Below are positions 31,159 to 54,671 of a DNA stretch of 56,171 nt, piece after piece. This stretch comes from a virus (lineage: Duplodnaviria > Caudoviricetes): positions 1-56,171 of IMG/VR virus record IMGVR_UViG_3300033143_006337; one strand, 5' to 3'. The notes under the pieces are model-generated. The model was given only the letters and a program-made list of their open reading frames with translations. It made no database searches and was not told where the DNA came from. Position 1 is the first letter of the stretch, and each line of letters begins with the position of its first letter. A program made the translations under genes and the position numbers.

Positions 31159-31542
31159 ATGGGTAACTTTCTGAAACTTCTTTTAACGATTTCTGTTTTT
31201 CTTTTCATCTCGTCAGTGGCGAGTGCAGATTGGTTTGGTGAAAATACCAGGATTAAATCTGTAACTCCGTACCATACAACTGTTGGTACGAGTACCGCTC
31301 TTGCAATTCCTTCTGCTGATGTTACTGGAAATATTTATCGTTTTGAGATTTGTAATGATGCTGTAAATACTTCTACTTATCTTGCTGTTGGGATGGATAC
31401 AGACGTTTCAGATGATGGCATTAGGCTTGATAAAGGAGCTTGCTGGGCTTGTGAAAACTGCAAACCATCTATTCTGAAGTTGATAAAGGTAGAGGGGCAG
31501 GCAGCAACTAACGGCTACTCAGTTTTTCAGTACAAACGATAA
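31159..31542 (+). CDS. Signal-peptide protein, four-Cys paralog 1
   Basis: MGNFLKLLLTISVFLFISSVASA/DW; ICND...GIRL..GACWACENC...GYSVFQY. Confidence 0.8.
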   Translation: MGNFLKLLLTISVFLFISSVASADWFGENTRIKSVTPYHTTVGTSTALAIPSADVTGNIYRFEICNDAVNTSTYLAVGMDTDVSDDGIRLDKGACWACENCKPSILKLIKVEGQAATNGYSVFQYKR

Positions 31543-31569
31543 CCAAATTTACTTATAAGGAGTTAGACT

Positions 31570-32307
31570 ATGAAATATTTAGCATTGTTTTCAATTCTTC
31601 TGTTTTCCTTCACTGCTTTTGCAGCGATGAACGATTCAAACAATAGAGCTTCCCAGGTAAGTTTTGTGCGAGGCTCAACAGATCTTGAAGTTAAAGAAAT
31701 CTCAAGTGTACAGTGCAGAGCAGATGTTGCAGGAAATTTAGGAGGTAAATACTTCCTGATTTATTCAGCATTGGATGCTGTGAAATATGGTATCTGGTAC
31801 GATGTTGATGATGGTTCAAGCGCACCAACAGTAGCGGGAGCAACGCTTGTAGAAGTTGATATTTCTTCAGGTGATTTAGGAGATCCTGTTTGTGCGGCAA
31901 CTGAAACTGCAATGGATGCTGTAACCGGAACACCCTGGGATATTGGGAGAGTTACAGATACACTTACCATTACAAGTTCTGACTTTGGAGCTGTAACGGA
32001 TATAGCCGATGTTGACACAACGCACACCGATATTTCAAAGACTACAGACGGGGTGAGCGCAGAAGCTGCAATTGGTGCTTCTGATATCATTGCGAATATA
32101 AGAGGATTCCAGGTTTGCAATGATGCTGTGAATACGTCAACTTACTTACTGATAGGTTGGTCGGCTACAGTTCAGGATACTGGCATAAGGATTGGGAAAG
32201 GGATTTGCTATTCTTGCGAAGAATGCTCAAGGAGTATTCTCTCAAATATGTATGTTTCTGGGCAGGCTGATGCAAACGCTTATGGAATTGTACAATGGAG
32301 AAAGTAA
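31570..32307 (+). CDS. Signal-peptide protein, four-Cys paralog 2 with inserted domain
   Basis: MKYLALFSILLFSFTAFA/AM; VCND...GIRI..GICYSCEEC...YGIVQW. Confidence 0.8.
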   Translation: MKYLALFSILLFSFTAFAAMNDSNNRASQVSFVRGSTDLEVKEISSVQCRADVAGNLGGKYFLIYSALDAVKYGIWYDVDDGSSAPTVAGATLVEVDISSGDLGDPVCAATETAMDAVTGTPWDIGRVTDTLTITSSDFGAVTDIADVDTTHTDISKTTDGVSAEAAIGASDIIANIRGFQVCNDAVNTSTYLLIGWSATVQDTGIRIGKGICYSCEECSRSILSNMYVSGQADANAYGIVQWRK

Positions 32308-32678
32308 TGATTAAATATCTAAGCTTACTTCTTTTACTGTTTTCTTTTACTTCATTCTCTGATGTTGTATTCAATTCTAATACGATGATGAATCAGATTG
32401 AGGTAGAGCATTCAACTGTTGGAGTAGCTGCGCAGCTTGCGATTGCTTCAGCTGATGTTAAGGCTGATTTGCATGGGTTTAGCATTTGTGTGGATAAAGA
32501 AGCAACGGCTACTTACTTTGCTATTGGTGAAGCAGTAGATCCTTTAACTGATGGGGTAAGAATTGGTGCAGGGCAATGCTTTATGTGTAATTTTTGCTCT
32601 GGTAAAATCTTAAGGCTTTTACGTGTTGTTGCTCAAGCAGCATCAACAGGTTACTCAGTAACGCAATTTAGGCAATGA
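32307..32678 (+). CDS. Signal-peptide protein, four-Cys paralog 3
   Basis: TAATG coupling; MIKYLSLLLLLFSFTSFS/DV; ICVD...GVRI..GQCFMCNFC...GYSVTQF. Confidence 0.8.
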   Translation: MIKYLSLLLLLFSFTSFSDVVFNSNTMMNQIEVEHSTVGVAAQLAIASADVKADLHGFSICVDKEATATYFAIGEAVDPLTDGVRIGAGQCFMCNFCSGKILRLLRVVAQAASTGYSVTQFRQ

Positions 32679-32725
32679 CGCGAGCATATAGGTAACGCAA
32701 TTTAAGCAGTGATGTAAACATATGG
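32658..32725 (+). repeat. Degenerate 34-bp tandem duplication
   Basis: GTAACGCAATTTAGGCAATGA at 32658 and GTAACGCAATTTAAGCAGTGA at 32692. Confidence 0.8.
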
Positions 32726-32740
32726 TAAAGGAGTACCGTT

Positions 32741-34342
32741 ATGAAATATCGTTCTAAAACAGATTATGCAGCAATCTATGCTGGTGATAAAGAAGGATAC
32801 AACATTGGTTTAGATGGGAGTATCTTTCTAAGAAAAGAAACTACCCCCAGGACTTTTAACGCTCCCAGGATCGGAACACAGGGACTTTCAGAAGGAGATA
32901 CAGCTGCTTCAACAGATATCTCAGGTGGAACTGATGATAATGTAGATGTTGCTGTTGATGGTGGAAGTGTTGTGACTGCGAATATCGCTTCTCTTGTTGG
33001 TCTTAGTACTGGGGCTTTGATTGCAGCTGCTCTTGAAGTAGCTATTAATGCTGCTCTTGCTGCAGATAGCCAAGATGCAAGGGTATGGGTAGATTTCGAT
33101 GGTGGTGATGATCATTACGAGATTTACAGTCAATTCACTGGACTTTCTTCTGCTGTTGTTATCACTGACTCTGCAGGCGACAACTTAGCAGACGATTTGA
33201 AAATTGGTGTTGCAAATGCCGGTACTGAAACTGCTGGAACTGATGATCAAGATTTCTTGCTCTATACAACAGGTGGTCCTACGTATTCTCAGCCAGTGGA
33301 ATCCAATGCCCATAGAAACGGACGTTTCCACACTGGGATTATACGAAAAAAGAAGGTTGCAGAGTTTGATATTGACACAATGATCAATATGAGCGGCAAT
33401 GCAGGGGATTCCTTGGATACAGCTATCAGGCTGCTCCTGGAGAACGTCTTTGGTCTTGAGACTGTTGTTGCGGCAACTTCAATTGATTATGAGCAAGGAC
33501 TTCCTAACTTTTATTTCTCAATGGTCCGAGTATCGACTATCTTTGGTGAGTACTTCACAGGTGCTTATGCCAAAGATATGACAATGACTCTTCCAGGTGA
33601 TAACCCAGGAACTTTCAAGTTTACTGGAAAAGCTGAGAAAGCTTCTATTGCTGGGCTTGCTCAATTAGATGGTGATGTTATTGCTTCTGCTGATGTTATC
33701 CTGAATGTTGATGAATCTGAAAGGTATACTGCTAACTCGAGAGTTATGCTTGTCGGTTTAGACGGTAGAACAATTCTTGCTGGTGCAGATGGAAGTCTTT
33801 ACGTAGCAAGTTTAGATCATGCTTTAGAAAAGGTGGTTTTAAGTGCTGCAGTGGATGCTGAAGATGATGGTTACTTAGTTCCTTGGAATCCAGGGGCAGT
33901 ACAACAGACAGGTAGAGATAATATCTACACTGATCTTGAGGGGAGCATCAAGCTTAACTCTACTGGTCAGGAGATTTGCACAACAAACATCGTTCTTTCA
34001 GCTACGAACGACCATATAGACAAAGACAACTGCTTTGGTGCAGATGCTAACAGAGGTTTTGTTGCAGGCAATCGCTTAACACTAAATCTTGCTGTTACTT
34101 TTGATCTAAGTAATGAAAACTTTGCAGATGTTGTGCAGGCAAGAGAGTTCGCAGGATTTGCACCAGAGATTGTTGTAGGGGATACTTCAGGACGTTATCT
34201 AAAAGTAACCGCTCCTAAGTGGATTCCGAGTGTTCCAGCTTTGGAAGTTCCAGAAAACGGAACTACCCCAACTACGCTGGAAGGAACTCTTTATCAGTCT
34301 GATTCAGGTGCAAAAGATCCTATAAAATTGCGTTTTCTGTAA
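32741..34342 (+). CDS. Major tail tube protein with inserted domains
   Basis: Position before chaperones and tape measure; strong RBS and terminator; tube-like C-terminus NDHIDKDNCFG...GNR.TLNL.VTF. Confidence 0.75.
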   Translation: MKYRSKTDYAAIYAGDKEGYNIGLDGSIFLRKETTPRTFNAPRIGTQGLSEGDTAASTDISGGTDDNVDVAVDGGSVVTANIASLVGLSTGALIAAALEVAINAALAADSQDARVWVDFDGGDDHYEIYSQFTGLSSAVVITDSAGDNLADDLKIGVANAGTETAGTDDQDFLLYTTGGPTYSQPVESNAHRNGRFHTGIIRKKKVAEFDIDTMINMSGNAGDSLDTAIRLLLENVFGLETVVAATSIDYEQGLPNFYFSMVRVSTIFGEYFTGAYAKDMTMTLPGDNPGTFKFTGKAEKASIAGLAQLDGDVIASADVILNVDESERYTANSRVMLVGLDGRTILAGADGSLYVASLDHALEKVVLSAAVDAEDDGYLVPWNPGAVQQTGRDNIYTDLEGSIKLNSTGQEICTTNIVLSATNDHIDKDNCFGADANRGFVAGNRLTLNLAVTFDLSNENFADVVQAREFAGFAPEIVVGDTSGRYLKVTAPKWIPSVPALEVPENGTTPTTLEGTLYQSDSGAKDPIKLRFL

Positions 34343-34372
34343 GTTAGTTTTTGTGTACTCCTTTCTACTTAT

Positions 34373-34408
34373 AAAATCTGCCTGGGCTCTAGCGCCCAGG
34401 TGGATTTT
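34373..34408 (+). terminator. Intrinsic terminator after tail tube
   Basis: AAAATCTGCCTGGGC-N6-GCCCAGGTGGATTTT with G-U pairs valid on the plus strand. Confidence 0.8.
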
Positions 34409-34464
34409 CTGCTAAATATAATTAAGTACTAATACTTAATTTACTTCATAGAAAGGCGTGAGCA

Positions 34465-34959
34465 ATGGCACTATCAGTAACACAGACCAAGAGACTAAAT
34501 GCAGTAAGAATCATCTCTAAGAAAGATCCCTCAATTGACTGGGATCAAACCTCTGAAGAAGATTGGAAAACTTATTGCGAAGATCCAACCAAAAATGAAG
34601 CTTTGATAAAGCTTAAACCAGATCAAGCCCCCACAATTTTCCTTTGCAACTTTGAGCTTTCCGGTAGAGAAAGAGCAACCGGAAAAGATTCAATGGTGAA
34701 GGGGATTGATGATGAGAAAAACGTGCAGGTATCCTATGGGTATTGGTCCTATACGATTGTGAGAATGATCCTGAAGGAGATTCAAAACCCACCAGGTACC
34801 AAAGATGGTATCGTGCTTAAAAAAGATCCTAAAGGCTATGTGGATGACTACACGATGAGTATTCTGGACAGGCCAAACCTGGGGTTAGTGGCAGAAATTT
34901 TTAACCACTATATGACATTATCAGAAGAAGATGAGACAAAGGCTGAATCAAAAAACTGA
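34465..34959 (+). CDS. Tail assembly chaperone (lambda gpG equivalent)
   Basis: Between tube and tape measure; ends in slippery A AAA AAC TGA. Confidence 0.8.
   Translation: MALSVTQTKRLNAVRIISKKDPSIDWDQTSEEDWKTYCEDPTKNEALIKLKPDQAPTIFLCNFELSGRERATGKDSMVKGIDDEKNVQVSYGYWSYTIVRMILKEIQNPPGTKDGIVLKKDPKGYVDDYTMSILDRPNLGLVAEIFNHYMTLSEEDETKAESKN
34950..34956 (+). other. Programmed -1 ribosomal frameshift site
   Basis: A AAA AAC heptamer; the -1 frame reads CTG ATA GGC GCA TTG GTA into ORF 34968..35378. Confidence 0.85.
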
Positions 34960-34967
34960 TAGGCGCA

Positions 34968-35378
34968 TTGGTAGATCTTTATTTTGCCAGTGCGGGAAAC
35001 AAAAAACTTTGCTCCTGTAGTATTTGCCCGAAGGAGCAAAAGAAACTTAGAAATTGTGAGCAGAAAGGTTTTCGTAATGTTAAGAAACCAAGAAGAGTTG
35101 ACGGTATGGGGATGGAATTTTATTTCTGCCCAGGTAAAGCTCAGTGGTATCCAAACATTGCGGAAACTTTTGAGCAGTGCAGGATAGCTCTTGAGACTGG
35201 CATTATGCCAGAGACAGGAAGCTTCTTAGATCAAAATGAACTTTTTGTAGAAGCTTTTCCTTTGTTTGTTGAGAGATGGAAGTACAGGAAGTACTTAGCG
35301 ATTTGGCAAGATGTAATGGAGTACACACCGAAGGTTTTGGAAGCTGTTGGAAGAATGTTCGGTGGAAAGGCTAAATAG
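34968..35378 (+). CDS. Tail assembly chaperone extension (gpT equivalent)
   Basis: -1 frame relative to upstream gene, no good RBS, stop overlaps tape measure start. Confidence 0.8.
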   Translation: MVDLYFASAGNKKLCSCSICPKEQKKLRNCEQKGFRNVKKPRRVDGMGMEFYFCPGKAQWYPNIAETFEQCRIALETGIMPETGSFLDQNELFVEAFPLFVERWKYRKYLAIWQDVMEYTPKVLEAVGRMFGGKAK

Positions 35379-38300
35379 TGGCGATCAAAACAACAGATGA
35401 ATTCAGAATTCCCATTAGTGTTGAGAATGAAACTGATGCTGATTTCAAGAAAATGGAAGTTACGGTAGCCAAAACCCTCGGTACTTTAAAAAATTACCAA
35501 AGGGCTAAAGCTCAGCTTGATAAAACCTCTCAATCTTTAAGTGCTTCTCTTGAGGTCACTAATCAACAGGTTCAGACAATTTCGGCAAGCTATATGCATG
35601 CTTCAAAAACTAGTGGAAAATTTACAGAAGCAATAACTAAGCAAACATCTGCTGTCCAACAACTATCAAGTACTTTTGCAACAATAGGAAATGTAGTTTC
35701 TCAGACAACTCAGTTCTTTAGTAATCTCATAAATATTATTGATGTTCTTACTGATCCTGAAAAGCTTAGGCGTTTCTCACAGCTGCTTTCTATTTTATCC
35801 ATTATTATGAGACTAAAAGGACAAAAAGAATTTTCGCAAAGACTTAGAGGCATGTCTAAAAACCTCGATTCGTTTGCAGATAGAATGGAGGTAATACGGG
35901 AAAGAGGTACTGATTTTCAGCAACTTGCGGATAGGGCAGAGATTGCTCAAACAGCTTTGGATGTAATGGAAGGTACTGTTAAAGGTCTTGCTGTTACTTT
36001 TGTAGGTCTTGGTCTTTCAACTCTTATACGTGGATTTGACCGTACAAGAGATTCAGTATTTCAGACAGCTAAAGTGTTTACTGGATTTGGAGGAACAGTA
36101 GCAAAAACTGGTTTTCTTATGGCTAATAAATTCAGACCATCTTTGCTTAAAGCTACAGAAGCTGGTCTTTTACTTTCACCAGTGCTTTTAGGTCTTGGAG
36201 CATTGATGAAAAATACTGATAATCAATTTATTAGATTTGCTGGAACTCTTGCAAGTATTGCTGCGATTATCTTGGGAAGTTTTGCAACTGCTATGCTTTT
36301 TGCACTACGTATTGTTGGAGATTTATTTATAGCTATAGGAGATAAACTTGTAGGGGCTATGGCTTCCTTTCAAAAGAAATCTATAATAATGGAAGAAAGT
36401 ATTAGAAGTCTTACTTTTACCATTCAAGGTTTTTCAAGGGAGCTTGGAGTAGGTGCTGTAGGATCTGTTGAGCTTTGGACAGAAGAAATTGAAAAGCTTA
36501 ATGATACTACTAAAGCGACAAGAAAAGAACTCACTAAATCTGCAAAGCTTATGATTTCTGAAGGAATTGCAATAGGCTTGACACTTGAGCAAAATATAAA
36601 ATTATTTCAAGCTGTTTCAGATATTGCTGCTGATACTGGGAAAAAACATGACGACGTAACGCAAAGAATTATAAGTGCATTGGCTGGGCAATCACAGTCT
36701 GTTCTTGCTCTTGGTATTAATACAAGAGAAACAGCTTTAGAACATAGCAAATTTGTGCAAGAGCTTGAGACAACTACAGATGCGCTTTCTGAAGAAGGAA
36801 AAGTGCTTGCTAGGCTCAGTATTATTTTTGACAGAGCTAATAAAGTAACTGGAGCAGCTGTTGCTGAAGCACAAAGTATTGCAGGAGCTACTGAGATTTA
36901 TGATAAAAGACTTGTACAGCTTCAGGAAAGACTTGGTAAACAAGGGGAGCTTACTAGGATTTTAATTTCTTTACAGACAAGACTTGTTAACGTATTTCTA
37001 AAATTCCCAGAACCAATAATATCAATAGTTGGAAATTTACAGGATTTTCTCGGTGTATCTCTCAAGATTGTTGGTGTTGTTATAAAGTACGCTGTTATTA
37101 TCTCAACTCTTACAACTGTCTACTTACTTCTAAATGCTGCTCTTGTAAAAAATGGGATTATACAGGGCTTTGTACAAAGAGCTTTTGTCATAACTGCAGC
37201 TGCAATAAATACTTCTACAGGGGCAGCTACAACAAATGTGATAGCTACTAACAGTATGTCAGCTGCTCTTTTGAATTTGTCTAATATTATTAGAGGATCT
37301 TTAGTAGTTGCTCTTACTAAATTGAGGTCTGCACTAACTATCACAGCTGTCTTTGGTACTCTTACAGCAGTGATAGGTAAAGTAACTATTGCTGTTGGGC
37401 TTATGTCTAAAGCTGTTATTGCTTTTTTACTTCATCCTGTTGTCCTAGCCGTTACTGCAATAACTGTTACTTTTCTTGCAGCTAAAGAAGCGATTGCAGG
37501 AGTGGTGGAGGAAACAGAATTTCTTAATAAGGCTTTTGCAGAGAATATAGAGCATACAAAAAAAGCAACAAAAGAAATCGATATCTTTGGAAAACTCTGG
37601 GAACTTGCTGTAAAAGCTGGCCATAAATTTTGGAAGCTTATGGTAGATATCATAAAATTTGCAATTCTTGGATACATTGGGGCAACGGTAAAAGCTGTTA
37701 TTGCAATTAAGCAATTACGAATTGCTTGGAATGAATTCACTGGGGATGATGATGAAGCCGAGGGGCTTAGAGAACAAGTTGTGATGCTTGAACAGGCTTT
37801 TAATGATTTAAGACTTACAGCCAATCTTACTAAGCTTGATATTGGTGGGGCTTTTTCATTAGAGATGAGATTAGCTGCAAAAAATATGCGGAGAAAAATT
37901 GATGAAGCTAAAGACAGTGTTATTAAATTTGATACCTCTCTAAGAACTTTAGCAGAGCTAGGAAGAGCTGCTTTTGATCCTAAGAAGCTTAGGCTTGAGA
38001 TATTTGCAGATGAATTTAAACGTGCTGAAATTGCTATGAGTGAACTATCTTTAGCTCATGCAAAAGTTACAGATCAATTTGCAAAAGATAGGTCAAACGA
38101 AGAACTTAGGGAACAGTTTATAAAAACAAAAAGAGATGCTGCTAGAGCTTTTATTGAGCTTGGAAAACTTCGTATTGATACTGTTAATAACTGGGCAGAT
38201 CAGGAAAGAAGACTTGTAATTGATAGGCTTAAGAATGAAGAGAAATTTGTAGAAGCTATAAGGATGGAGAACACTGCTAGGTTAAAAGCTATTGATGAGC

Positions 38301-43430: not shown

Positions 43431-43442
43431 GGAGGCTTTCAA

Positions 43443-44108
43443 ATGACTGTCAATTTAGTGATATCGAAAACATTTTTAGGAGCGCAAGTCTCCGATGTAC
43501 TGGCAGGAGCAGGTGTTGGTGTTGACATTGGGCAAGTAGTCAATGGAAAATATGTTCCCATCATAAACCAAGTTGCGAATACAGGGCATCAGGATATTTA
43601 TGTTCGGCATGATGCTGCTGTAGACCAAATCACTGATGTTAAGACACATATTGCAGAGTATTCTGCAGGTGCTTATGGTGGTGCAGACAGTGCAGCTAAT
43701 GACTATGCAACATTAATCACAAAAGGAACTGCTGATACTGAAGACACTGCCAACAACTCTAACGGTACAGCTTCTGGTTTTCGTATTGAGCATAATGGTC
43801 TTGGTATCGCTGGGCTTGGTGCAAGTGCTTTCTTACCGTCAAGAGGACAGGTTGATATTTATGGCAATAGTGGAACAGACGGGATTGACTTAGCCAGTGC
43901 TTTTGACGCGCATGTTGACGCTATGGTTTATGATTCAGGTGGTGAGACTGATGCTATTGCTCCTGTTACGGGCCAAATCGGCAAAGCAGCTGATGCAAAC
44001 CTTGGTGAAGCAATGCACGTAGGTTTGAGGTTATACCTCGAACAAGCCGCAACGAATGGTGGTATTATACAGTGGGATTGGGTAGTAGCTTACTCCTTTA
44101 CTGCTTGA
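43443..44108 (+). CDS. Tail-associated structural protein
   Basis: AAGGAGG RBS, Gly/Ala/Asp-rich beta composition. Confidence 0.6.
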   Translation: MTVNLVISKTFLGAQVSDVLAGAGVGVDIGQVVNGKYVPIINQVANTGHQDIYVRHDAAVDQITDVKTHIAEYSAGAYGGADSAANDYATLITKGTADTEDTANNSNGTASGFRIEHNGLGIAGLGASAFLPSRGQVDIYGNSGTDGIDLASAFDAHVDAMVYDSGGETDAIAPVTGQIGKAADANLGEAMHVGLRLYLEQAATNGGIIQWDWVVAYSFTA

Positions 44109-44115
44109 GGTTTTT

Positions 44116-44571
44116 GTGAATTTAATTGTGAGAAAAGAAAATTCACCTGCTAAAAAAATGATAATGCCTCTTTGGCGTTTGAGATGGAGATTTGATTTTA
44201 TCGACAAAGCCCCCAGGATTGGTATCTGGAATGGTACAAGTGGCAGTGAAAAAGATTCTGCATGGGCAGTAGATAAAAGAGGTTTGAAGTCTGCATCGAT
44301 ACAAGGTGAATTTCACAGAGACTACATCGTAAAAACATTTTGGTTCTGTCCTGGTGAAGATTATGCAACGATGAAATGGGAAGGAGCAGTCAATATTCCT
44401 GGTGTTTTGGGATTTCAAGGGGAAGTTAAGTTAGCTCCGAGAATCATTGGTTTAAGCCTTCTTTCAAGATCAGAGCGAATAACGGTTTTTGTTAATGGTG
44501 AAATAACTAAAAGACCAATTAACGAAGACGAAGCAAAATTTAAAATTTATGAACATAGTAGAGGAGTTTAG
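44116..44571 (+). CDS. Hypothetical tail-region protein
   Basis: In-operon ORF, LRWRFDF. Confidence 0.6.
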   Translation: MNLIVRKENSPAKKMIMPLWRLRWRFDFIDKAPRIGIWNGTSGSEKDSAWAVDKRGLKSASIQGEFHRDYIVKTFWFCPGEDYATMKWEGAVNIPGVLGFQGEVKLAPRIIGLSLLSRSERITVFVNGEITKRPINEDEAKFKIYEHSRGV

Positions 44572-44573
44572 TC

Positions 44574-47258
44574 ATGAGAGTTTTTAGGTTTGTTATATTA
44601 GCTACACTTTTAACTTTTGTTTTTGGCCATACGCTTGACACAGATGTTGGTAGAGTTCCCCTAGCTCATCCCGATTTAGGGCATGATGGTGGAGCGGGAT
44701 TGCATACGAAAGTTCGCAATGCATGGACAACTATTGGGGATATTATAAGCTCACGCTATGAAGAGTTTACAAGTATTGCAGACTCAACTCTATCTACTCA
44801 TACTCACAATTTTAACATTCCCTTCGCAGATCTGAATGTAATCCTTTGGGATGATGTTGGGGCAGCTAAGACCAGGATTGCAGATCCAGCTGGAGCGGGG
44901 TGGATAATTGCCGCTAACGGTGGGGATGCTAAGAATAAAATAGATGTAACTACCCCTGGAAGTGGTGGACCACATGATTTTTCTGTAGAAGTGCATTCTG
45001 GTTTAAAAGATATGTCAGTGCAATCTTCTGCAGCTGTTTCTATTACTGGTGGGGATATTGATGATATAGATCTAACAGATCCTGTTCATGATGCTTCTGC
45101 AATCTTTGCCGAGATTGCAACACCAGCAAATCCAGCAGCTGGTAAGCATAAGATTTATTTTAAATCAACCGACAATAAACCCTATCGGTTAGATGAGAAC
45201 GGGGTAGAGCTTGAGCTTGGTTCTGGTGCAGGAGCAGGGGCTATTAACTACATCGCAAACTCAGATATAGAATCAAATGCAGATGATTATGATGAGTTTA
45301 AGGAAACAAAAACCGTAGCCACTGATGTTAGCGACAATGAGATTGATTTAACAGCTCATGGTTTACAAGTAGATGATTTAGTAAGTTTCACAGGGCTATC
45401 AAATACAACAACTCCAGCCAATAGCACAGATTATTACGTGCAGGCTGTGACTGATGCAGATCATTTTAAGCTTTCTACTACGAAAGGTGGATCAGCATTA
45501 ACCTTTGTAGGAACTGATGATACAGGTGTAACACAAACTCAGTCACGCGCAATTACGGGAACAGGTGGAAGCCCTACATTAGCAGTAGCTAGAACAACAA
45601 CAGGAGGAGAAATATTAAGAGGGACAGCTTCTTTAGAAATTACAAAGGACGCTGCCTCAAGATTGGGGGAAGGATTCGCTGTTGATTATACCGTTGATAG
45701 AGCAGACTTTTCTAAACGTCTTGAGTGGTCTTTTGATTGGATGACTTCAGCTAATTATGTTTCCGGTGATATGGGAATGTACTTATACCGGGTAACGGCA
45801 ACAGCTAAGCTTATTCCTGTTAGTTATGTAAACTTACCAGCACACCAAACAGTTGCTACTCCTATTCAGATTTATGCAAATCATGAGGAAGCTGGAGATT
45901 ATAGGATAATCTGGCAAGTACAAACCTCAAATGCATCTGCCTATACAGCTTATGTGGATAATGTTTCTGTTGGTCCAATGAATACAGCGCAAGGCCCACC
46001 AGTAAGTGAATTTATTTCCTGGACGCCAATATTTGAGAATGATTCAACGCATGCTCCAGATCAAGCAGATTTTTATTATCAACGTGTTGGTAGTAAAATA
46101 TTCATACATTTTATTTACAATGTTACTGCTACAGGTACAGACGCAAGCCCTTGGAGGTTTACTCTTCCTGATGGTATATCTCCTTCAACGCTTAGTTCCG
46201 GTGATAGTGCTGGTATTATCAAAGTATGGAAACGAACTGTAGGCTATGTTGCAATAGATGCGGTATATCAAACGGGTAATAAAATAGGACTAATAAAACA
46301 CCAAAGTACTGCATTAATGAATGGCAATGACATAGGAATTACTGGCTCAGAGTTTGATGTTATTGAATCACCTGGTACTATTTCTTTTGAAGTTGCAGCC
46401 TGGTCAGGATCGGCTGTGGGTTTAACAAATAGTCGCGTCGAATATTCTTGCAACACAACAACGACAGATGCAGACGATACTGCTAATTTTTCAAATAGTC
46501 CCAATGGTTGCTTAATGCCAAACATTACGGCAACAACTGCTGGATCAGCTGATTTGTCAAAAAGAGTTCGCTTTTTAACAACTATCCAATCTACCGACGT
46601 AAAAGGAATAGAAATTCTAAGAAACGGAGAAACAATTTGGGAACTTGTAGAAGTATCTGATGCATATGCAATGCATACAAATCAAAGTATTGAATCGTAT
46701 GGTATCGGATATAAACCAGTTACAGGCAGCACTACTGATCTTGACGTTAGATTTGGAAGAGCTGGTAGACTAACCAATGGTTCATATGCTGGCACAGGAT
46801 CTAACTATCCTCAAACATCAGGGGATCGCTACCGAGTATTTAAATCGAGTAATCCTTTAAGTATAGGGCAAGCAGTTACAGAATATTTTGAAGTAAAAAA
46901 ATTAACAGCTGATGTAGCTTCTGATACTGCTTCAATTGCTGATTTTGCTACTACTCTTACACCAGGCAAAGAGTATCGCTTCACAATGAATTATAAAATT
47001 GTTATTGGAGCAGGCGCTCCTCAAGCAGCGACATTGAGACTTCTCGATGGTGGAACAATCATAGGAACTGTTTTTCATTCTTCTGGGTCAAACGTAACTT
47101 ACCAAGATAGTTTTTCTACAGTGCGAACGATGCAAAGCTCAGCATTTACTGTTTCATGGGATGAAAATACAAACTGTGATCTTAACGGGGATAATACTCT
47201 AAATGAAACCCACTTGATAATTGAAGAAGTTGATTTAGTAGAAGGGACTGTAAATTGA
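44574..47258 (+). CDS. Multi-domain tail fibre / receptor-binding protein with signal-peptide-like N-terminus
   Basis: MRVFRFVILATLLTFVFG/HT; TPANPAAG..KIYFK, HGL..DD.V.F...YYV...FKLS, SWTP...YYQRVG fibre modules. Confidence 0.75.
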   Translation: MRVFRFVILATLLTFVFGHTLDTDVGRVPLAHPDLGHDGGAGLHTKVRNAWTTIGDIISSRYEEFTSIADSTLSTHTHNFNIPFADLNVILWDDVGAAKTRIADPAGAGWIIAANGGDAKNKIDVTTPGSGGPHDFSVEVHSGLKDMSVQSSAAVSITGGDIDDIDLTDPVHDASAIFAEIATPANPAAGKHKIYFKSTDNKPYRLDENGVELELGSGAGAGAINYIANSDIESNADDYDEFKETKTVATDVSDNEIDLTAHGLQVDDLVSFTGLSNTTTPANSTDYYVQAVTDADHFKLSTTKGGSALTFVGTDDTGVTQTQSRAITGTGGSPTLAVARTTTGGEILRGTASLEITKDAASRLGEGFAVDYTVDRADFSKRLEWSFDWMTSANYVSGDMGMYLYRVTATAKLIPVSYVNLPAHQTVATPIQIYANHEEAGDYRIIWQVQTSNASAYTAYVDNVSVGPMNTAQGPPVSEFISWTPIFENDSTHAPDQADFYYQRVGSKIFIHFIYNVTATGTDASPWRFTLPDGISPSTLSSGDSAGIIKVWKRTVGYVAIDAVYQTGNKIGLIKHQSTALMNGNDIGITGSEFDVIESPGTISFEVAAWSGSAVGLTNSRVEYSCNTTTTDADDTANFSNSPNGCLMPNITATTAGSADLSKRVRFLTTIQSTDVKGIEILRNGETIWELVEVSDAYAMHTNQSIESYGIGYKPVTGSTTDLDVRFGRAGRLTNGSYAGTGSNYPQTSGDRYRVFKSSNPLSIGQAVTEYFEVKKLTADVASDTASIADFATTLTPGKEYRFTMNYKIVIGAGAPQAATLRLLDGGTIIGTVFHSSGSNVTYQDSFSTVRTMQSSAFTVSWDENTNCDLNGDNTLNETHLIIEEVDLVEGTVN

Positions 47259-47449
47259 AACGATATATCTGTATAACAATTTCAATTTGGTTTATCTGTA
47301 TAACAAACTGCAGATGTGTTTCTACTCATCACGTAGCAGATAAAAATGGTTGTGTCAAAAAAGAAGCTTCCTACGGTACGCAAGCATATGGTAAAGAAAA
47401 AGAAATCGAAAAATGTGGTTATACCCCAGGGGGGAAAGTCAAAAAATGA
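47255..47449 (+). CDS. Small Cys-rich exported protein or lipoprotein
   Basis: Basic then hydrophobic N-terminus followed by NCRC; overlap-coupled on both sides. Confidence 0.45.
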   Translation: MKRYICITISIWFICITNCRCVSTHHVADKNGCVKKEASYGTQAYGKEKEIEKCGYTPGGKVKK

Positions 47450-47826
47450 CAGATATTGTTAGAGCAAGAAATACTCATAGAGCCCAGGTGCTTGTTGATG
47501 GTGACATGAGCCAGGATCTTGTATCCAAGACTATTGACTTTAGAGAAATGGCGATAGGTTCTATACAATCTCATTGGGAAGGCAACGATGAGTTTGATGG
47601 TGAGCTTCATTTTTACGGGAGCAATTATCCAGACCAGTTTTTCTCTAAGCTTTCTTGCGGTTACCACGTTATGGATGAGGATGGTTCTGATGCTTATGAT
47701 AATGCAAAATGCCACATCCCAAACCTGGGGGTTATCGGGTATCGTTATATGAGGGTGCTTTACAAAAAAGGCTCAAATACTGCAGGAACACTAAACATCA
47801 TTTGTATAGGTAAGAAAAATGGGTAA
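47446..47826 (+). CDS. Small beta-sandwich virion protein
   Basis: VSKTID...GSN...YRYMRVLY...GTL pattern. Confidence 0.6.
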   Translation: MTDIVRARNTHRAQVLVDGDMSQDLVSKTIDFREMAIGSIQSHWEGNDEFDGELHFYGSNYPDQFFSKLSCGYHVMDEDGSDAYDNAKCHIPNLGVIGYRYMRVLYKKGSNTAGTLNIICIGKKNG

Positions 47827-48262
47827 CATCAAAGATCTTCCTGCACAAATCGTTAAGAATTGCCCCGAAGGTGGAGCCCTGGATGTTTCGTTCTCTCCTA
47901 TCGATAGCACGACGAAAATTGCAGCTGCTTCGAATGGTTGGGTGGATGTTCCTGATGAAAGTTGGAAAGAGCTTTTCAAGCATACCCTGCTTGCCGTTGA
48001 CGGTACGCTCTATATTTTAGGAATGCTTACGTCTTTAGTCGGCATGAGCGGGGATTTTAGAATTGATGTTTATGATGGTGCAAGCTCAACATACCACGAA
48101 GAGCATAATTTGAATTCACAAAAACCATCTCTTTCTCATGGGTTAAAAAAAGCAATTAACGTGCCTTTCGTAGCTGGAGCTTACATAGCTGTACAGGCTA
48201 GGATGAACGTACAAAACCAGTCAGGACGTGCATTTGCATCGCTGAGTATCGTTAAACAATAG
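47819..48262 (+). CDS. Hypothetical tail-region protein
   Basis: In-operon ORF, beta-rich. Confidence 0.6.
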   Translation: MGNIKDLPAQIVKNCPEGGALDVSFSPIDSTTKIAAASNGWVDVPDESWKELFKHTLLAVDGTLYILGMLTSLVGMSGDFRIDVYDGASSTYHEEHNLNSQKPSLSHGLKKAINVPFVAGAYIAVQARMNVQNQSGRAFASLSIVKQ

Positions 48263-48284
48263 ATTTTTAGGAAAGGTTTAACTA

Positions 48285-48548
48285 ATGCCTATACTTATTT
48301 TTGACGATAAGGAGTTCAAGTTTTATGTTAGGGCTCGACCTAACGAGACTTTTACTCCTGATGAAGAGATCCAAAAACTTAACGATGAACTTGCTGTTAT
48401 TCGTGGTGAGTATCAGCAAGTTTATAAAAAGTTAAGTAACTTCCTTCCAAAGTTGACACTATGGAGCAGAAAACACGATGTTGATTTGGAAAAAAAGTTA
48501 AGGGCTAAGGAGGAAAAGCAGAAAGAGGCTGAGCCTAAAGAAAGTTAA
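48285..48548 (+). CDS. Small coiled-coil protein, possible fibre chaperone
   Basis: Charged helical composition unlike neighbours. Confidence 0.5.
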   Translation: MPILIFDDKEFKFYVRARPNETFTPDEEIQKLNDELAVIRGEYQQVYKKLSNFLPKLTLWSRKHDVDLEKKLRAKEEKQKEAEPKES

Positions 48549-48568
48549 TCTTTATTTAGGAGTAAGAC

Positions 48569-49588
48569 ATGATAGCTTTCACAACTCTTATTGGTCAATA
48601 CAATGCAGCTCTTTTAACCCTTGCCGATGGTGATTTCGGTCATCCAGCAATCGACGTTAAATCTCGTCTTATCTTGGATCATACAACGTCTTCAATGAAA
48701 ATTGGAGATGGTACGGATATCCTGGATGTACTGGTTTGGGATGCAGCAAGTGCGGGAACTGAAAAAGGTTTCATGCCTCTTGGTGTTTACAAAGCAAATC
48801 CCACCAATCTTGCCGATACAGATGGTGACTGGGTGCCTTTTCAGTTTAACGGTGCTGGAGCATTACGTGTTGATGCAGAAGTTTCTGTAACTACAGGTGC
48901 AGATAAAGCAGAAGATTCCGCTCATGTTACTGCTGATATCGGTTCTTATGTTCTCTCAGTAAGAGAAGACGCGCTTGCTTCAAGCACAAGTGCAGATGGT
49001 GACTATCAGTCTTTCAAAACTGATTCACTTGGCGCATTGTGGGTAAGAAGCAGAGCAGCTTACGCAGAAGATGCTGCCCATACAACTGGTGATATGGGGA
49101 ATTTTGTTCTTGCTGTTGCTAATGAAGCAAAATCTGATCTTGTCAGCGCAGATGGTGACTACACTCCTTTTGCAGTTAGTAAAAAAGGTGAGCTTTACAC
49201 CATAACAGAAATTGCAGAAAACGGAACAGAAGCAGATATTGGTGTTGATGAAGCTGGTGATGGTGAAATTGATGTTGCTTATCACGCTACGAACTTTATT
49301 GATCTTGCAACTATTGCTGTTGGTGCTGGTGAAACTCTCACCATCAAAGGTTTTGATTGCTCAAGTGATGTTCTTGTTGCTGCTCGTCTTGTTGTCGATG
49401 ATGATGGTACGCCTACCAAAATCATCAGAAAACTTCCTGTTACGGAAAACAACGGTTACTCTGCTCTTGAATTCCTAAGAGGAATTGAAGTTGCTGGTAG
49501 CGCAACAATTTCCGTTATACTGCAGGCAAGATGCATGCGCCCAGGAAAAACCGCGCATTGTGGTGGTGGAATCAACGCTTATAAATAA
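48569..49588 (+). CDS. Repeat-containing fibre/spike protein
   Basis: Three to four repeats of ED.AH..GD.G..VLAV....ADGDY..F.....G.L. Confidence 0.65.
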   Translation: MIAFTTLIGQYNAALLTLADGDFGHPAIDVKSRLILDHTTSSMKIGDGTDILDVLVWDAASAGTEKGFMPLGVYKANPTNLADTDGDWVPFQFNGAGALRVDAEVSVTTGADKAEDSAHVTADIGSYVLSVREDALASSTSADGDYQSFKTDSLGALWVRSRAAYAEDAAHTTGDMGNFVLAVANEAKSDLVSADGDYTPFAVSKKGELYTITEIAENGTEADIGVDEAGDGEIDVAYHATNFIDLATIAVGAGETLTIKGFDCSSDVLVAARLVVDDDGTPTKIIRKLPVTENNGYSALEFLRGIEVAGSATISVILQARCMRPGKTAHCGGGINAYK

Positions 49589-49613
49589 TCTCTAAGAAAG
49601 GGGATAAGGGAAG

Positions 49614-49979
49614 ATGAAAAGATTAATATTACTGTTGTTCTTGATTCTTCCCTTTCTTTTTTCCTTCGATGAGATTAGAGATCCTGATAGGATAGATGTT
49701 AATGATGTTGGTTACTATTCATCAGTAATCACTGTTGGAACTTCCCAGGTGGAAGTTAAGACTGATACCACAAAAAGACGATACCGCCAAAGAATCCTAA
49801 TCTACAATGACTCAGGCTCAACTGTTTATGTTGGTCCTACAGGAGTTACCACAACAGGCTCCACAAAAGGAGTTCCTTTATACAAAAAACAAACTATGGT
49901 TATCCCGCTAGGGAATGTTGGGATATTTTTGATAGCTGGATCTGCCAGCAATGACGTTATAGTACAGGTGCTTGAGTGA
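49614..49979 (+). CDS. Signal-peptide beta-sandwich protein, distantly like the 31-32 kb paralogs
   Basis: MKRLILLLFLILPFLFS/FD; TVGTS...ILIYND....VYVG...GVPL. Confidence 0.7.
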   Translation: MKRLILLLFLILPFLFSFDEIRDPDRIDVNDVGYYSSVITVGTSQVEVKTDTTKRRYRQRILIYNDSGSTVYVGPTGVTTTGSTKGVPLYKKQTMVIPLGNVGIFLIAGSASNDVIVQVLE

Positions 49980-50518
49980 GAAAACTTCTATTCATACTGC
50001 TATGCCTTCTTTTTATCCAGGCTCCAGGTACTACTGATTTTTGGATTAGTCCTGAAGCAGAATCCATTCCTTTTGATCCCCTTACAAGTGGTTTAACGAG
50101 TACAGAAGTTGGGCCAGCAATAAGAGAAGCTGCAGATAGTGTAGCCGTTTCAGCTTCACCAGGATTCACCTGGGGTAAGAGCGGAAATATCACTAACTCT
50201 TATTTACTGAATGATACTGTACCGTCTAATCTGGCCGGTAGAATTGTTCCCATTACAGCTGGATATATAGCAGAGATTTTTGTATCAGCTGAAGTTGCTG
50301 CTACCTGTACAATTACTATTTATAAAAGAACTGATCCTGGTCCGGTATTTACACCCCTGGATTCTATTTCCCTGATAGCTGTAAGAACAATGGTAGCTGC
50401 ATCTACAGCAAGTGTTGCTCGCGGTGATGAGATTGCTGTAAAAGTTACTGCTGGGAGTGTTAAGAATCCTGTTGTTGGTTTGGTTATCAAAGGAGAGGTT
50501 TCTGGATCTCCACCATAA
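49976..50518 (+). CDS. Signal-peptide protein with fibre-type linker and beta-sandwich
   Basis: MRKLLFILLCLLFIQA/PG; AESIPFD...EV..AIRE motif. Confidence 0.7.
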   Translation: MRKLLFILLCLLFIQAPGTTDFWISPEAESIPFDPLTSGLTSTEVGPAIREAADSVAVSASPGFTWGKSGNITNSYLLNDTVPSNLAGRIVPITAGYIAEIFVSAEVAATCTITIYKRTDPGPVFTPLDSISLIAVRTMVAASTASVARGDEIAVKVTAGSVKNPVVGLVIKGEVSGSPP

Positions 50519-52944: not shown

Positions 52945-53453
52945 TGGAAATTATTTTAGCGCAGGGTAAGCAGCCTTTAGCAAGAGCAATACAGCAGGCA
53001 GTTGGTTATAAATATTCTCATGCTGCTTTGCGCTACACTCACTCTCAATGGATGATCCATAGCTCAATTGGTGGAGTTCAGCCTGAGTGGTGGTATCATT
53101 TCCAGAAACGATATGGGAACATCAGACGTTATAATTGTTTGTTTGATTGCGCAGATAAAGCTGCAGAGAATCTTGTGAAACAAATAGGCCACAAACAATA
53201 TGCCTATACAACTCTTATTGGTTCTGGTTTGGTTCTTGCTTTCGATACTCTTGGAATCCATATCAAAAACCCTTTCAAATCCAATAATGCTTTTTTCTGT
53301 ACAAAAGTTATTCTCCATTTTTTCAAAAAATGCAATGAGCTTGACTCTTCGTTGAAGCTCAAAGAATATATCAGTGAAGCCCTTACACCAAAAGATATAG
53401 GAGAATATCTCGATGAAAATCCTAACTTTGTGCTTATCAATCCTTCTGTTTAG
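52944..53453 (+). CDS. Permuted papain-like (YiiX/NlpC-P60) enzyme
   Basis: YSHAAL before Y.Y and FFCT, then LTP; His-before-Cys order. Confidence 0.75.
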   Translation: MEIILAQGKQPLARAIQQAVGYKYSHAALRYTHSQWMIHSSIGGVQPEWWYHFQKRYGNIRRYNCLFDCADKAAENLVKQIGHKQYAYTTLIGSGLVLAFDTLGIHIKNPFKSNNAFFCTKVILHFFKKCNELDSSLKLKEYISEALTPKDIGEYLDENPNFVLINPSV

Positions 53454-54297: not shown

Positions 54298-54301
54298 AAT
54301 C

Positions 54302-54601: not shown

Positions 54602-54671
54602 AACTCCGATAGTAAAAGCATAGCTCATATCGAGTTCCCAAATAATTGAATTACAACTCCAAAGGTTTTAT

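What the first reader, a model, noticed from the sequence alone, without database searches (positions are those of the whole stretch)
31159..50518. Virion operon with at least six Sec-signal-peptide proteins: candidate two-compartment (periplasmic or post-lysis) virion assembly system
Seen: six genes embedded in the tail operon, with normal RBSs or stop/start coupling, begin with a basic n-region, an 11-14 aa hydrophobic core and a small-residue cleavage site: 31159 (ASA/D), 31570 (AFA/A), 32307 (SFS/D), 44574 (VFG/H), 49614 (LFS/F), 49976 (IQA/P). Their neighbours (tube, hub, 43443, 47446, 48569, 50528, 52186) have no such leader. The mature parts look like virion modules, and 49976 shares its linker and C-terminal domain pattern with the leaderless 50528. 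Established: tailed phages assemble in the cytoplasm, and signal peptides are normally confined to some endolysins, spanins, exclusion lipoproteins and morons such as Lom and Bor. Inference: this phage exports a subset of tail proteins, folds and oxidises them in the periplasm, and adds them to particles only once the inner membrane is breached. That would allow disulfide-stabilised adhesins and keep particles unarmed until lysis. An alternative is that they are host-surface decoys or exclusion factors.
Basis: partly seen in the sequence, partly recalled or inferred. Interest (0 to 1): 0.88.

Follow-up and report, generated by a model that had tools for sequence, protein, structure and literature searches.

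The report
Phage tail-fibre proteins with export signals
An uncultured tailed phage puts classic bacterial export signals on several of its tail-fibre-type proteins, which suggests that part of the virus particle, or look-alikes of it, is made outside the cytoplasm where tailed phages normally assemble.

Summary
The window is a complete 56-kb phage genome. All six named genes start with a Sec/signal-peptidase-I-type leader behind a good ribosome-binding site or a coupled start. The core tail genes have no leader.

Comparison with relatives adds three points.

1. 31159, 31570 and 32307 belong to a small family: 31 hits among 1.84 billion representatives. All 28 full-length members carry a leader and four invariant cysteines. 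The fold is a small jelly roll. The cassette sits at a different genome position in one relative.
2. 44574 is the tail fibre in the canonical slot after the hub. Its roughly 125-residue N-terminal domain occurs with a leader in some phages and without one in others, in the same slot. The predicted cleavage gives the same N-terminus as the leaderless forms.
3. 49614 and 49976 (C1q-like fold) belong to a widespread module that is leaderless in other phages. In the 49976 family the leader was gained or lost at least twice.

Export is therefore well supported, at about 0.85. Whether the exported proteins join particles at lysis (about 0.4) or act on the host envelope (about 0.33) is untested. I found no precedent in five literature searches. 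SignalP was not available, and the host is unknown.

The parts
31159..31542 (+). Secreted 4-Cys jelly-roll protein, paralogue 1 (127 aa). The leader is residues 1-23 and the mature part starts DWFGEN.
   Evidence: Family alignment A4 has 4 invariant Cys. AF2 model with pLDDT 88.7 is an 8-strand jelly roll.
31570..32307 (+). Paralogue 2 (245 aa): leader residues 1-18, an extra N-terminal domain of about 115 residues, then the same 4-Cys jelly roll.
   Evidence: Orthologues of 245-249 aa occur in G001, G002, G004 and among the database representatives.
32307..32678 (+). Paralogue 3 (123 aa from ATG 32307, which overlaps the stop of 31570). The leader is residues 1-18.
   Evidence: The 32295 start would put an acidic residue in front of the leader. 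A database gene call trimmed this leader (P0121).
44574..44627 (+). Leader of the long fibre (18 codons).
   Evidence: GAGGAG lies 7 nt upstream, and there is no alternative in-frame start in the first 30 codons. It is flagged SP-like.
44628..47258 (+). Mature long tail fibre. Residues about 19-145 form a conserved N-terminal domain, followed by a variable distal part.
   Evidence: The N-domain is shared with leader-bearing and leaderless fibres in the same slot after the hub. Only residues 20-143 match in the relatives.
49614..49979 (+). Small protein (121 aa) with a leader of residues 1-17. It is a member of a family of about 100 residues that is leaderless in other phages.
49976..50518 (+). 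C1q/TNF-like jelly-roll protein (180 aa) with a leader of residues 1-18. Its GTG start overlaps the stop of 49614.
50528..52183 (+). Leaderless 551-aa partner gene of the conserved module. Its C-terminal domain weakly resembles that of 49976.
32741..34342 (+). Leaderless 533-aa putative major tail (tube) protein. It was used to find the relatives. The role is assigned from gene order only.
   Evidence: No Pfam or PHROG hit.
43443..44571 (+). Two leaderless genes (221 aa and 151 aa) that always precede the fibre gene in relatives.
53413..56075 (+). Lysis region: a lipobox-type 294-aa protein, an Amidase_2 endolysin (54672-55229), membrane proteins, and a protein with a leader plus a C-terminal hydrophobic stretch (55746-56075).

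Best explanation
The window is a complete genome of an uncultured siphovirus-like phage, probably virulent, that infects a bacterium with two membranes.

In this lineage, peripheral tail-fibre-module proteins carry canonical cleavable Sec signal peptides. These are the long fibre 44574, the small protein 49614 and the C1q-like protein 49976.

A lineage-specific family of small jelly-roll proteins with four cysteines (31159, 31570, 32307) is always made with such a leader.

The core tail (tube, tape measure, distal tail protein and hub, all assigned from gene order and size) has no leader and is assembled in the cytoplasm.

Shown here by comparison:
- The leaders are translated.
- They keep signal-peptide architecture while their sequence drifts.
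- In the fibre family the predicted cleavage produces the same N-terminus that leaderless orthologues have.

Inferred:
- The proteins are translocated and cleaved, and they fold in the periplasm. The four-cysteine family would form disulfides there.
- The fibre-type proteins bind the cytoplasmically built particles only when holin, endolysin and spanin-type functions merge the compartments at lysis ('late arming'). This is comparable to the late, spontaneous addition of preassembled fibres known for T4.
- The role of the four-cysteine family is open. It may be a late-added decoration or adaptor, or an envelope-directed factor.

My confidence in export is about 0.85. My confidence in the whole statement, including late arming, is 0.4.
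For: Genome and gene context:
- The window is a complete genome with a 114-nt terminal repeat.
- The structural gene order includes portal, protease and connector.

Leaders in the window:
- All six proteins are flagged by the rule-based test. Flagged ORFs number 8 of 28 from 31159 onward against 1 of 65 before it.
- There is no alternative start in 44574.

Four-cysteine family:
- A profile search found 31 hits in 1.84e9 representatives.
- All 28 full-length members have a 10-residue window of mean KD at least 2.46 near the N-terminus, with no acidic residue before it. My stricter rule flags 21 of the 28.
- Four Cys are invariant in 28 sequences, and many leaders end in A followed by Q.

Fibre family:
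- Among 13 database relatives, 9 have leaders, 3 are leaderless and 1 is odd.
- Among 18 metagenome loci, 7 have leaders (5 distinct) and 11 are leaderless, with in-frame stops or no hydrophobic stretch upstream.
- The slot after the hub, a 221-247-aa gene and a roughly 150-aa gene is the same in both kinds.
- Leaderless forms start MPTT or MGTT exactly where the leader forms have their predicted cleavage site.
- -3 is A, V or L and -1 is A, G or S in 14 of the 15 leader forms that I read.
- A leader-bearing member has a Phage Tail Collar domain, 30.8 bits against a cut-off of 24.
- The window holds only one gene with this N-domain, so there is no leaderless spare copy.

49976 family:
- 13 of 120 listed relatives have a leader.
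- Of 22 viral loci, only the close relative G001 has one.
- The tree needs 4 changes of leader state, at least 2 of them forced by well-supported branches.
- The fold is a C1q-like jelly roll, and the best PDB match is the tail fibre of Agrobacterium phage 7-7-1, E 1.1e-4.

Other:
- In G001 a short leaderless anchor protein (213 aa) is followed by a 703-aa leader-bearing protein. In that protein's family 29 of 42 members are flagged, and nearly all show leaders by eye.
- Late fibre addition is known for T4 (review PMC3185693, passage read).
Against: - I know of no tailed phage that completes its virion with Sec-exported parts. Five literature searches listed none.
- No experiment or proteome exists for this lineage. 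It has no match among 50,697 deposited phage records.
- SignalP was not available, so the leader calls are my heuristic plus conservation.
- The relatives G001, G003, G005 and G006 make the same fibre N-domain without a leader. Export is therefore not needed for this fibre type.
- The time in which periplasm and cytoplasm mix before the lysate is diluted is short (established knowledge of lysis kinetics).
- The four-cysteine cassette does not track the leader state of the fibre. It is present in G005 and G003, which have leaderless fibres, and it moves within the genome. That fits an accessory role better than an assembly role.
- That 49614 and 49976 are virion proteins at all is inferred from fold and neighbourhood only. 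PHROGs and Pfam are silent.
Confidence: 0.4

Rival explanations
1. The proteins are exported but never join the particle. They act on the envelope of the infected cell. By binding the phage's own receptor or its precursors in the periplasm or outer membrane, they would block superinfection and keep progeny from sticking to debris, in the manner of T5 Llp or Cor. They are fibre-derived because fibre domains already bind the receptor.
For: - Signal peptides in tailed phages are otherwise known on envelope-directed proteins (established knowledge: Llp, Cor, Lom, Bor, Sim).
- The four-cysteine cassette is movable and varies from 0 to 3 copies.
- P. gingivalis phages carry several signal-peptide genes of unknown function that are proposed to modify the host surface (PMC10367356, passages read).
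- The best promoter-like match in 29.0-35.5 kb lies just upstream of the cassette.
- The window has other leaderless fibre-like genes (48569, 50528, 52186) that could serve the particle.
Against: - There is no leaderless spare copy of the 44574 N-domain or of the 49614 and 49976 families in this complete genome.
- The N-terminal domain of the fibre is kept at 45-70% identity in leader-bearing forms, which a free decoy would not need.
- In relatives such as L045, L042 and G005 this fibre is the only fibre-like gene after the hub, so the family is the particle's fibre.
- The genes sit inside the late operon without their own terminator. Promoter-like sites are not enriched, 8 against 14.2 in shuffles.
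- No integrase was found among the 10 large left-arm ORFs scanned, so a prophage-expressed moron role is unlikely.
- None of the six has a lipobox.
Confidence: 0.33
2. The hydrophobic N-termini are translated but do not lead to export during infection. The proteins stay in the cytoplasm and enter the tail in the usual way. The leader would be buried in the baseplate, or used later for membrane contact during infection, or removed by another protease.
For: - This keeps the textbook rule that tailed phages assemble in the cytoplasm.
- Leaderless and leader-bearing orthologues occupy the same slot, as expected if assembly is the same.
- Capsid proteins can score as signal peptides without being exported (remark in PMC10367356).
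Against: - The leaders keep signal-peptidase-type -3/-1 residues and a basic start while their sequence is not conserved. A structural helix would conserve sequence, not cleavage rules.
- The cores of 11-17 residues, mean KD 2.2-3.6, are typical of efficient export signals.
- Both AF2 models give the leader as a separate helix with lower confidence (10-residue-block pLDDT 60-71 against mostly 86-98 in the folded core).
- Many leaders in the four-cysteine family end in A followed by Q, a host-specific signal-peptidase habit (Q-rule as described in PMC10367356).
Confidence: 0.12
3. Artefact: the leaders are untranslated upstream sequence, and the real starts lie downstream.
For: A database gene call for 32307 does start at an internal Met (P0121).
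Against: - Strong ribosome-binding sites or coupled starts lie at the leader starts.
- There is no in-frame start for 30 codons in 44574.
- Open frames that encode signal-peptide-like leaders are kept in dozens of diverged homologues.
Confidence: 0.03

Closest known systems
Phage T5 Llp and phi80/N15 Cor (receptor-blocking lipoproteins encoded beside tail or receptor-binding genes; recalled, not from a call)
   Same: They are phage-encoded and exported through Sec. They are encoded in or next to the tail-fibre region and act in the envelope of the infected cell.
   Different: They are small lipoproteins with a lipobox and are not related to fibre proteins. None of the six proteins here has a lipobox. 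Three of the six are orthologues of leaderless fibre-module proteins. No sequence relation was found.
Lambda Lom and Bor type morons (recalled)
   Same: They are signal-peptide proteins embedded among late or tail genes of a tailed phage.
   Different: Morons have their own promoter and terminator and are expressed from the prophage. Here there is no terminator after the cassette and no enrichment of promoter-like sites. No integrase was found in the ORFs scanned. The genes are start/stop-coupled to their neighbours.
Late attachment of preassembled long tail fibres in phage T4 (review PMC3185693, passage read; in vitro fibre addition recalled)
   Same: Fibres are made separately and bind finished particles as the last step. 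This is the step that 'late arming' would use.
   Different: In T4 all partners are cytoplasmic and have no signal peptide.
Bdellovibrio MAT (mosaic adhesive trimer) fibre adhesins (PMC10769870, passages read)
   Same: They are phage-tail-fibre-like trimers made with a signal peptide. [quoted passage not shown] 44574 has the same layout. One homologue of G001's 703-aa leader-bearing protein is named by NCBI as from a Bdellovibrionales MAG.
   Different: They are bacterial surface adhesins, not encoded in a phage tail operon. Sequence homology of the N-domains was not tested, because no MAT sequence was at hand.
Signal-peptide genes of unknown function in Porphyromonas gingivalis siphoviruses (PMC10367356, passages read)
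   Same: A tailed-phage genome carries several genes with Sec signal peptides. Their cleavage sites follow the host's habit of Q at +1, which is also seen in many members of the four-cysteine family.
   Different: They are not reported as fibre orthologues.
Filamentous phages (Inoviridae; recalled; abstract of PMC4823517 seen in the listing)
   Same: Virion proteins carry signal peptides and the particle is completed at or beyond the inner membrane.
   Different: They are not tailed, have no capsid packaging in the cytoplasm, and extrude without lysis.

Membership tests
Sec (signal peptidase I) signal peptide | Basic n-region, hydrophobic core of about 7-15 residues, small residues at -1 and -3, and no proline at +1. 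| tested here: met
   All six are flagged by my rule-based test. For 49976 the site must be APG then T, not IQA then P. SignalP was not available.
Sec (signal peptidase I) signal peptide | The property is conserved across homologues while the sequence drifts. | tested here: met
   Four-cysteine family: 28 of 28 full-length members have a hydrophobic N-terminal window, and the strict rule flags 21 of 28. Leader-bearing fibres and 49976 relatives behave the same way.
Sec (signal peptidase I) signal peptide | Actual translocation and cleavage. | not testable with these tools
   This needs PhoA fusions or N-terminal proteomics.
Lipoprotein (signal peptidase II) signal | Lipobox with Cys at +1. | tested here: not met
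   None of the six has Cys after the core. 53413, in the lysis region, has LFS then C.
Tail fibre / receptor-binding protein (44574) | Gene directly downstream of the hub genes, with a conserved N-terminal domain and a variable distal part. | tested here: met
   Synteny holds in 9 loci or records of relatives. Only residues 20-143 are shared with the relatives. The lengths of the relatives range from 213 to 981 aa.
Tail fibre / receptor-binding protein (44574) | Recognised fibre domain. | tested here: inconclusive
   44574 itself has no Pfam or PHROG hit. Homologue P0159 has the Phage Tail Collar domain and P0165 has Laminin_G_3.
Tail fibre / receptor-binding protein (44574) | Presence in the particle. 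| not testable with these tools
   No cultured relative was found.
C1q/TNF-like jelly-roll head (49976) | Fold match to trimeric C1q-type heads or phage fibre tips. | tested here: inconclusive
   The Foldseek best E is 1.1e-4 and TM is at most 0.43 normalised by the query. The hits are a phage 7-7-1 tail fibre, C1q heads, phage cement proteins and CBM6. There is no sequence match in PDB.
Moron (Lom/Bor type) | Own promoter and terminator, with expression from a prophage. | tested here: not met
   There is no terminator after the cassette, and promoter-like sites number 8 against 14.2 in shuffles. No integrase was found among the 10 ORFs scanned. The scan covers sigma-70-type promoters only.
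Bacillus Ena endospore-appendage subunits (top fold hits of the four-cysteine family) | Jelly roll plus an N-terminal connector with cysteines that cross-link subunits (feature recalled). | tested here: not met
   The fold hits are only E about 1.5e-3 with TM at most 0.47. The mature N-terminus has no Cys, and all four Cys lie in the jelly roll.
Bdellovibrio MAT adhesins | Signal peptide, a conserved N-domain of about 130 aa, and a fibre. | not tested
   The layout is the same, but no MAT sequence was available for a comparison.
Common origin of the four-cysteine family and the 49614 family | Profile-profile similarity. | tested here: not met
   hhalign gives probability 5.8%. A joint alignment looked suggestive, with 18-24% identity.

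The most novel reading that the evidence does not exclude
Some tailed phages of bacteria with two membranes finish their particles outside the cytoplasm. The receptor-binding fibres and small head-like proteins are exported through Sec, processed and folded in the periplasm, and they arm the cytoplasmically built particles only when lysis joins the compartments. The leader has been gained or lost repeatedly on three fibre-module families, so this would be a recurring evolutionary option and not a one-off. The always-exported four-cysteine jelly-roll proteins could be periplasmic adaptors or late tail decorations.
Probability: 0.35. Interest if true: 0.92.

Novelty: new variant of a known kind. 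Interest (0 to 1): 0.78.

Why it matters
Tailed-phage assembly is taught as a purely cytoplasmic process, and signal peptides in these phages are tied to lysis or host-conversion genes.

Here, orthologues of a canonical tail fibre and of two neighbouring fibre-module proteins alternate between leaderless and signal-peptide forms in related phages. The cleavage site is placed so that the mature protein is the same.

Two outcomes are possible, and both would be new:
- These phages arm their particles from the periplasm. That would be a new assembly route, with consequences for disulfide-stabilised adhesins, for the timing of infectivity and for engineering fibres.
- Phages repeatedly convert their own receptor-binding proteins into exported envelope factors. 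That would be a new route to exclusion functions.

Both outcomes are directly testable with leader fusions and particle proteomics.

There is also a practical point. Gene callers can trim such leaders (P0121), so the phenomenon may be under-counted.

Tried and rejected
**Family and database searches**
- Pfam and PHROGs gave nothing at E <= 0.01 on the six proteins and on 14 neighbours. The only exception was Amidase_2 for 54672.
- PHROGs on 54 members of the 49976 family gave three single-member hits at E about 0.007, one of them a 'tail fiber protein' family. These are too weak to use.
- PDB sequence searches with the two family profiles gave nothing meaningful.
- Deposited phages: megablast of the whole region found nothing. 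tblastn with the tube protein, 49976, 31159 and the leaderless fibre P0165 also found nothing. The portal finds only relatives of 21-25% identity in phages of many different hosts. The host therefore stays unknown.
- Both scans of genome contigs, with the four-cysteine family and with the tube protein, found no prophage relative.
- A single-protein scan of viral contigs with 31570 found nothing. A scan with the 50528 alignment found only G001.
- The listing of cluster members gave no organism names.

**Comparisons that did not support an idea**
- The idea that the 894-aa fibre is a fusion of G001's 213-aa and 703-aa proteins is rejected. There is no similarity, best E 1.0.
- The idea that the extra domain of 31570 is related to the tube protein is rejected, best E 1.1.
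- A common origin of the four-cysteine family and the 49614 family is not shown. hhalign probability is 5.8%.
- The idea that the four-cysteine cassette goes together with leader-bearing fibres is rejected. G003 and G005 have the cassette and a leaderless fibre.

**Jobs without a usable answer**
- Complex prediction was run with three copies of the mature fibre N-domain and the upstream 151-aa protein. It returned no verdict (scores 0.33, 0.03, 0.00), which is evidence neither way.
- ESM Atlas for the mature 31159 lists only unnamed viral clusters. The nearest named one (PRD1 P5 spike N, on 32% of members, score 0.85) is a lead only.

**Literature**
- Five searches listed 71 papers in all. Judging by titles and abstract starts, I saw none that describes a tailed-phage tail fibre with a Sec signal peptide.
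- This is not proof of absence.

Full report
**What the window is**

The 56,171-base window is a whole virus record with direct terminal repeats. The repeat is 114 nt. No tRNA gene was found.

- Genes run on the minus strand up to about 14.6 kb and on the plus strand after that.
- The left arm encodes a family A DNA polymerase, an RNase T-like exonuclease, an SNF2-type helicase and a D5-like primase-helicase. No integrase appeared among the 10 large ORFs scanned.
- The right arm has a portal (Pfam 125.8 bits), a prohead protease, a head-tail connector and weak terminase matches.
- Next comes a long tail module with a 1,682-aa protein in the tape-measure position, and then a lysis region with an Amidase_2 enzyme.
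- The roles I give to the tube (32741), the distal tail protein (40426) and the hub (41718) come from gene order and size only.
- The phage has no detectable relative among 50,697 deposited phage records, apart from distant portal matches. It has none as a prophage in the species genomes scanned. The host is unknown.
- The lipobox protein and a protein with a leader plus a C-terminal hydrophobic stretch in the lysis region point to a host with an outer membrane. This is an inference.

**The observation**

All six ORFs are there.

- Five have AGGAG- or GGAG-type sites at the right distance. 49976 starts at a GTG that overlaps the stop of 49614.
- 32307, not 32295, is the sensible start of the third gene.
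- In 44574 no other in-frame start exists in the first 30 codons.
- A rule-based test that I wrote flags all six, with hydrophobic cores of 11-17 residues.
- Across the 93 ORFs picked in the genome it flags 8 of the 28 from 31159 onward and 1 weak case among the 65 before.
- The tube, hub, 43443, 47446, 48569, 50528 and 52186 are not flagged.

**The three paralogues at 31159-32678**

They share a C-terminal domain of about 100 residues with four cysteines, in the pattern C ... CxxCxxC.

- A profile search of 1.84 billion cluster representatives found only 31 proteins. Of these, 28 are full length (119-150 aa or 240-249 aa).
- All 28 have a strongly hydrophobic N-terminal window with no acidic residue before it. 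My stricter rule flags 21 of the 28.
- The remaining three hits are a trimmed gene call of the window's own 32307 (P0121), a fragment, and a marginal 482-aa hit.
- The leaders are not alignable, while the mature domain is. The four cysteines are invariant in 28 sequences, and many leaders end in A followed by Q. That is how real signal peptides evolve.
- The AlphaFold2 model is confident (mean pLDDT 88.7, and 94-98 over the domain). It is an eight-stranded jelly roll, with the leader as a separate helix.
- PDB matches are generic, best E 1.5e-3 and TM at most 0.54: Ena pili, nucleoplasmin, the PRD1 penton and the lambda tail tip.
- Among predicted viral structures there are 102 matches at E <= 0.001. 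Most of the 50 listed are uncharacterised phage proteins of about 85-135 residues. ESM Atlas agrees.
- So this is an exported, cysteine-bearing branch of a common small phage fold of unknown role.

Related phages were found through the tube protein (61-73% identity) and the fibre.

- G002 has three copies before the tube gene, G004 has two, and G003 and G005 have one each.
- G006 has none in the 26 kb held.
- G001, which is 99% complete, has none before the tube. It has two copies after the lysis genes at the end of the late operon.
- The cassette is thus nearly universal in the lineage but is not tied to one position.
- It has no terminator of its own, and promoter-like sites are not enriched.

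**The long fibre 44574**

Only residues 20-143 match proteins in G001 and G003. There the homologues (213 aa and 375 aa) have no leader.

- A database search with residues 1-160 found 13 other proteins. Nine have a leader, three are leaderless, and one has an unrelated N-terminus.
- A metagenome scan gave 18 loci. Seven have a leader (five distinct sequences). Eleven have none, and in those the frame upstream is closed or not hydrophobic.
- In both kinds the gene follows the same run: tape measure, a protein of about 470 aa, a protein of about 570 aa, a protein of 221-247 aa and a protein of about 150 aa.
- In L045, L042 and G005 it is the only fibre-like gene after that run.
- The alignment shows that leaderless forms begin MPTT or MGTT just where leader-bearing forms have their predicted cleavage site.
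- -3 is A, V or L and -1 is A, G or S in 14 of the 15 leader forms that I read.
- One leader-bearing homologue has the Pfam Phage Tail Collar domain, and one leaderless homologue has a concanavalin-like domain.
- The window has no second gene with this N-domain.
- 44574 is therefore the orthologue of an ordinary tail fibre, with a precise signal-peptide add-on.

**49614 and 49976**

49976 has 127 relatives at E <= 0.001.

- Of the 120 listed, 13 have a leader. The rest are leaderless forms of about 160 aa, shorter forms or longer fusions.
- In 22 viral loci only G001 has the leader. The others show the same gene string without leaders in phages of 30-57% G+C: a 48569-like gene, a gene of about 100 aa, a gene of about 160 aa and a gene with the 50528 N-terminus. 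The ORF finder used the most upstream start, so a leader would have been seen.
- The gene of about 100 aa is the leaderless counterpart of 49614.
- On a tree built without the leader columns, the 13 leader-bearing rows need four changes of state. At least two are forced by well-supported branches.
- The 49976 model (pLDDT 87.1) has the leader helix, a second helix and a C1q/TNF-like jelly roll.
- Its best PDB matches are the tail fibre of Agrobacterium phage 7-7-1 (E 1.1e-4), C1q heads, phage cement proteins and CBM6 modules, with TM at most 0.43 normalised by the query.
- Its C-terminal domain weakly resembles that of 50528.

**G001's extra fibre**

In G001 the short leaderless anchor protein is followed by a 703-aa protein with a leader.

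- That protein is unrelated to the body of 44574.
- Its family has 42 members in the search. My rule flags 29, and by eye nearly all others also start with a leader.
- One member is named by NCBI as coming from a Bdellovibrionales metagenome-assembled genome.

**How it most likely works**

Two strong regularities collide here. The leaders look and evolve like working Sec signals, while three of the proteins are orthologues of ordinary, leaderless fibre-module proteins, one of them the canonical tail fibre.

- I put export at about 0.85.
- Given export, the absence of leaderless spare copies and the retention of the fibre's N-terminal domain favour the reading that the proteins still end up on the particle. 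That can only happen when lysis joins the compartments.
- The main rival, at 0.33, is that they are envelope-directed factors derived from fibre proteins.
- A smaller possibility, at 0.12, is that the leaders do not lead to export during infection.
- An annotation artefact is nearly excluded, at 0.03.
- For the four-cysteine family I can only say that it is exported and probably disulfide-bonded. Its movable position, and its presence beside leaderless fibres, argue for an accessory role.

**Comparison with what is known**

I know of no tailed phage whose tail fibre carries a Sec signal peptide, and five literature searches listed none. The nearest things are:

- Envelope-directed phage proteins such as Llp, Cor, Lom and Bor (recalled).
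- The late addition of preassembled fibres in T4 (PMC3185693, passage).
- The signal-peptide genes of unknown function in P. gingivalis phages (PMC10367356, passages).
- The Bdellovibrio MAT adhesins, which have the same layout of signal peptide, a conserved N-domain of about 130 residues and a fibre (PMC10769870, passages).

**Limits**

- No dedicated signal-peptide predictor was available.
- The host is unknown.
- There are no expression or proteome data.
- The complex prediction gave no verdict.
- Supplementary files of papers were closed.

Noticed in passing
window 1-114 and 56058-56171: An exact 114-nt direct terminal repeat, consistent with a complete linear genome.
   Followed up: yes
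window 47255-47449: A 64-aa TTG-start ORF with a hydrophobic, cysteine-rich N-terminus overlaps the stop of the fibre gene. My leader test flags it, but its coding status is unknown.
   Followed up: no
window 53413-54297: A 294-aa protein with a lipobox-like leader (LFS then C) sits just before the lysis genes. A 323-aa counterpart sits in the same slot in G001. It is far larger than usual outer-membrane spanin subunits.
   Followed up: partly
window 55746-56075: A 109-aa protein with an N-terminal leader, several cysteines and a C-terminal hydrophobic stretch. Its topology resembles a single-chain spanin (a recalled comparison, not tested).
   Followed up: no
window 24160-26487: The portal protein (Pfam Phage_portal, 125.8 bits) has a weak Mu F-like match at its C-terminal end, below the curated cut-off. 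This suggests a portal-MuF fusion.
   Followed up: no
L015 1134-1868 (G001): A 244-aa ORF is inserted between two conserved tail genes and is absent from the window. Its N-terminus looks like that of a GIY-YIG homing endonuclease (motif recalled, not tested).
   Followed up: no
protein P0121 (database call of window 32307-32678): A public gene call starts this gene at an internal Met, so the leader is missing. Automatic annotation can hide such leaders.
   Followed up: partly
window 31052-31080: The best sigma-70-like promoter match of 29.0-35.5 kb (10 of 12) lies just upstream of the three-gene cassette. Such sites are not enriched overall, 8 against 14.2 in shuffles.
   Followed up: no
L013 12952-15063 (G001) and protein P0197: The 703-aa leader-bearing fibre-like protein of G001 belongs to a family in which nearly all of 42 members have leaders. 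One member is labelled by NCBI as from a Bdellovibrionales MAG, a possible hint to host range or to kinship with MAT adhesins.
   Followed up: partly
window 34465-35378: Two small ORFs (164 aa and 136 aa) lie between the tube gene and the 1,682-aa protein, in the usual position of tail assembly chaperones. I did not look for a frameshift signal.
   Followed up: no
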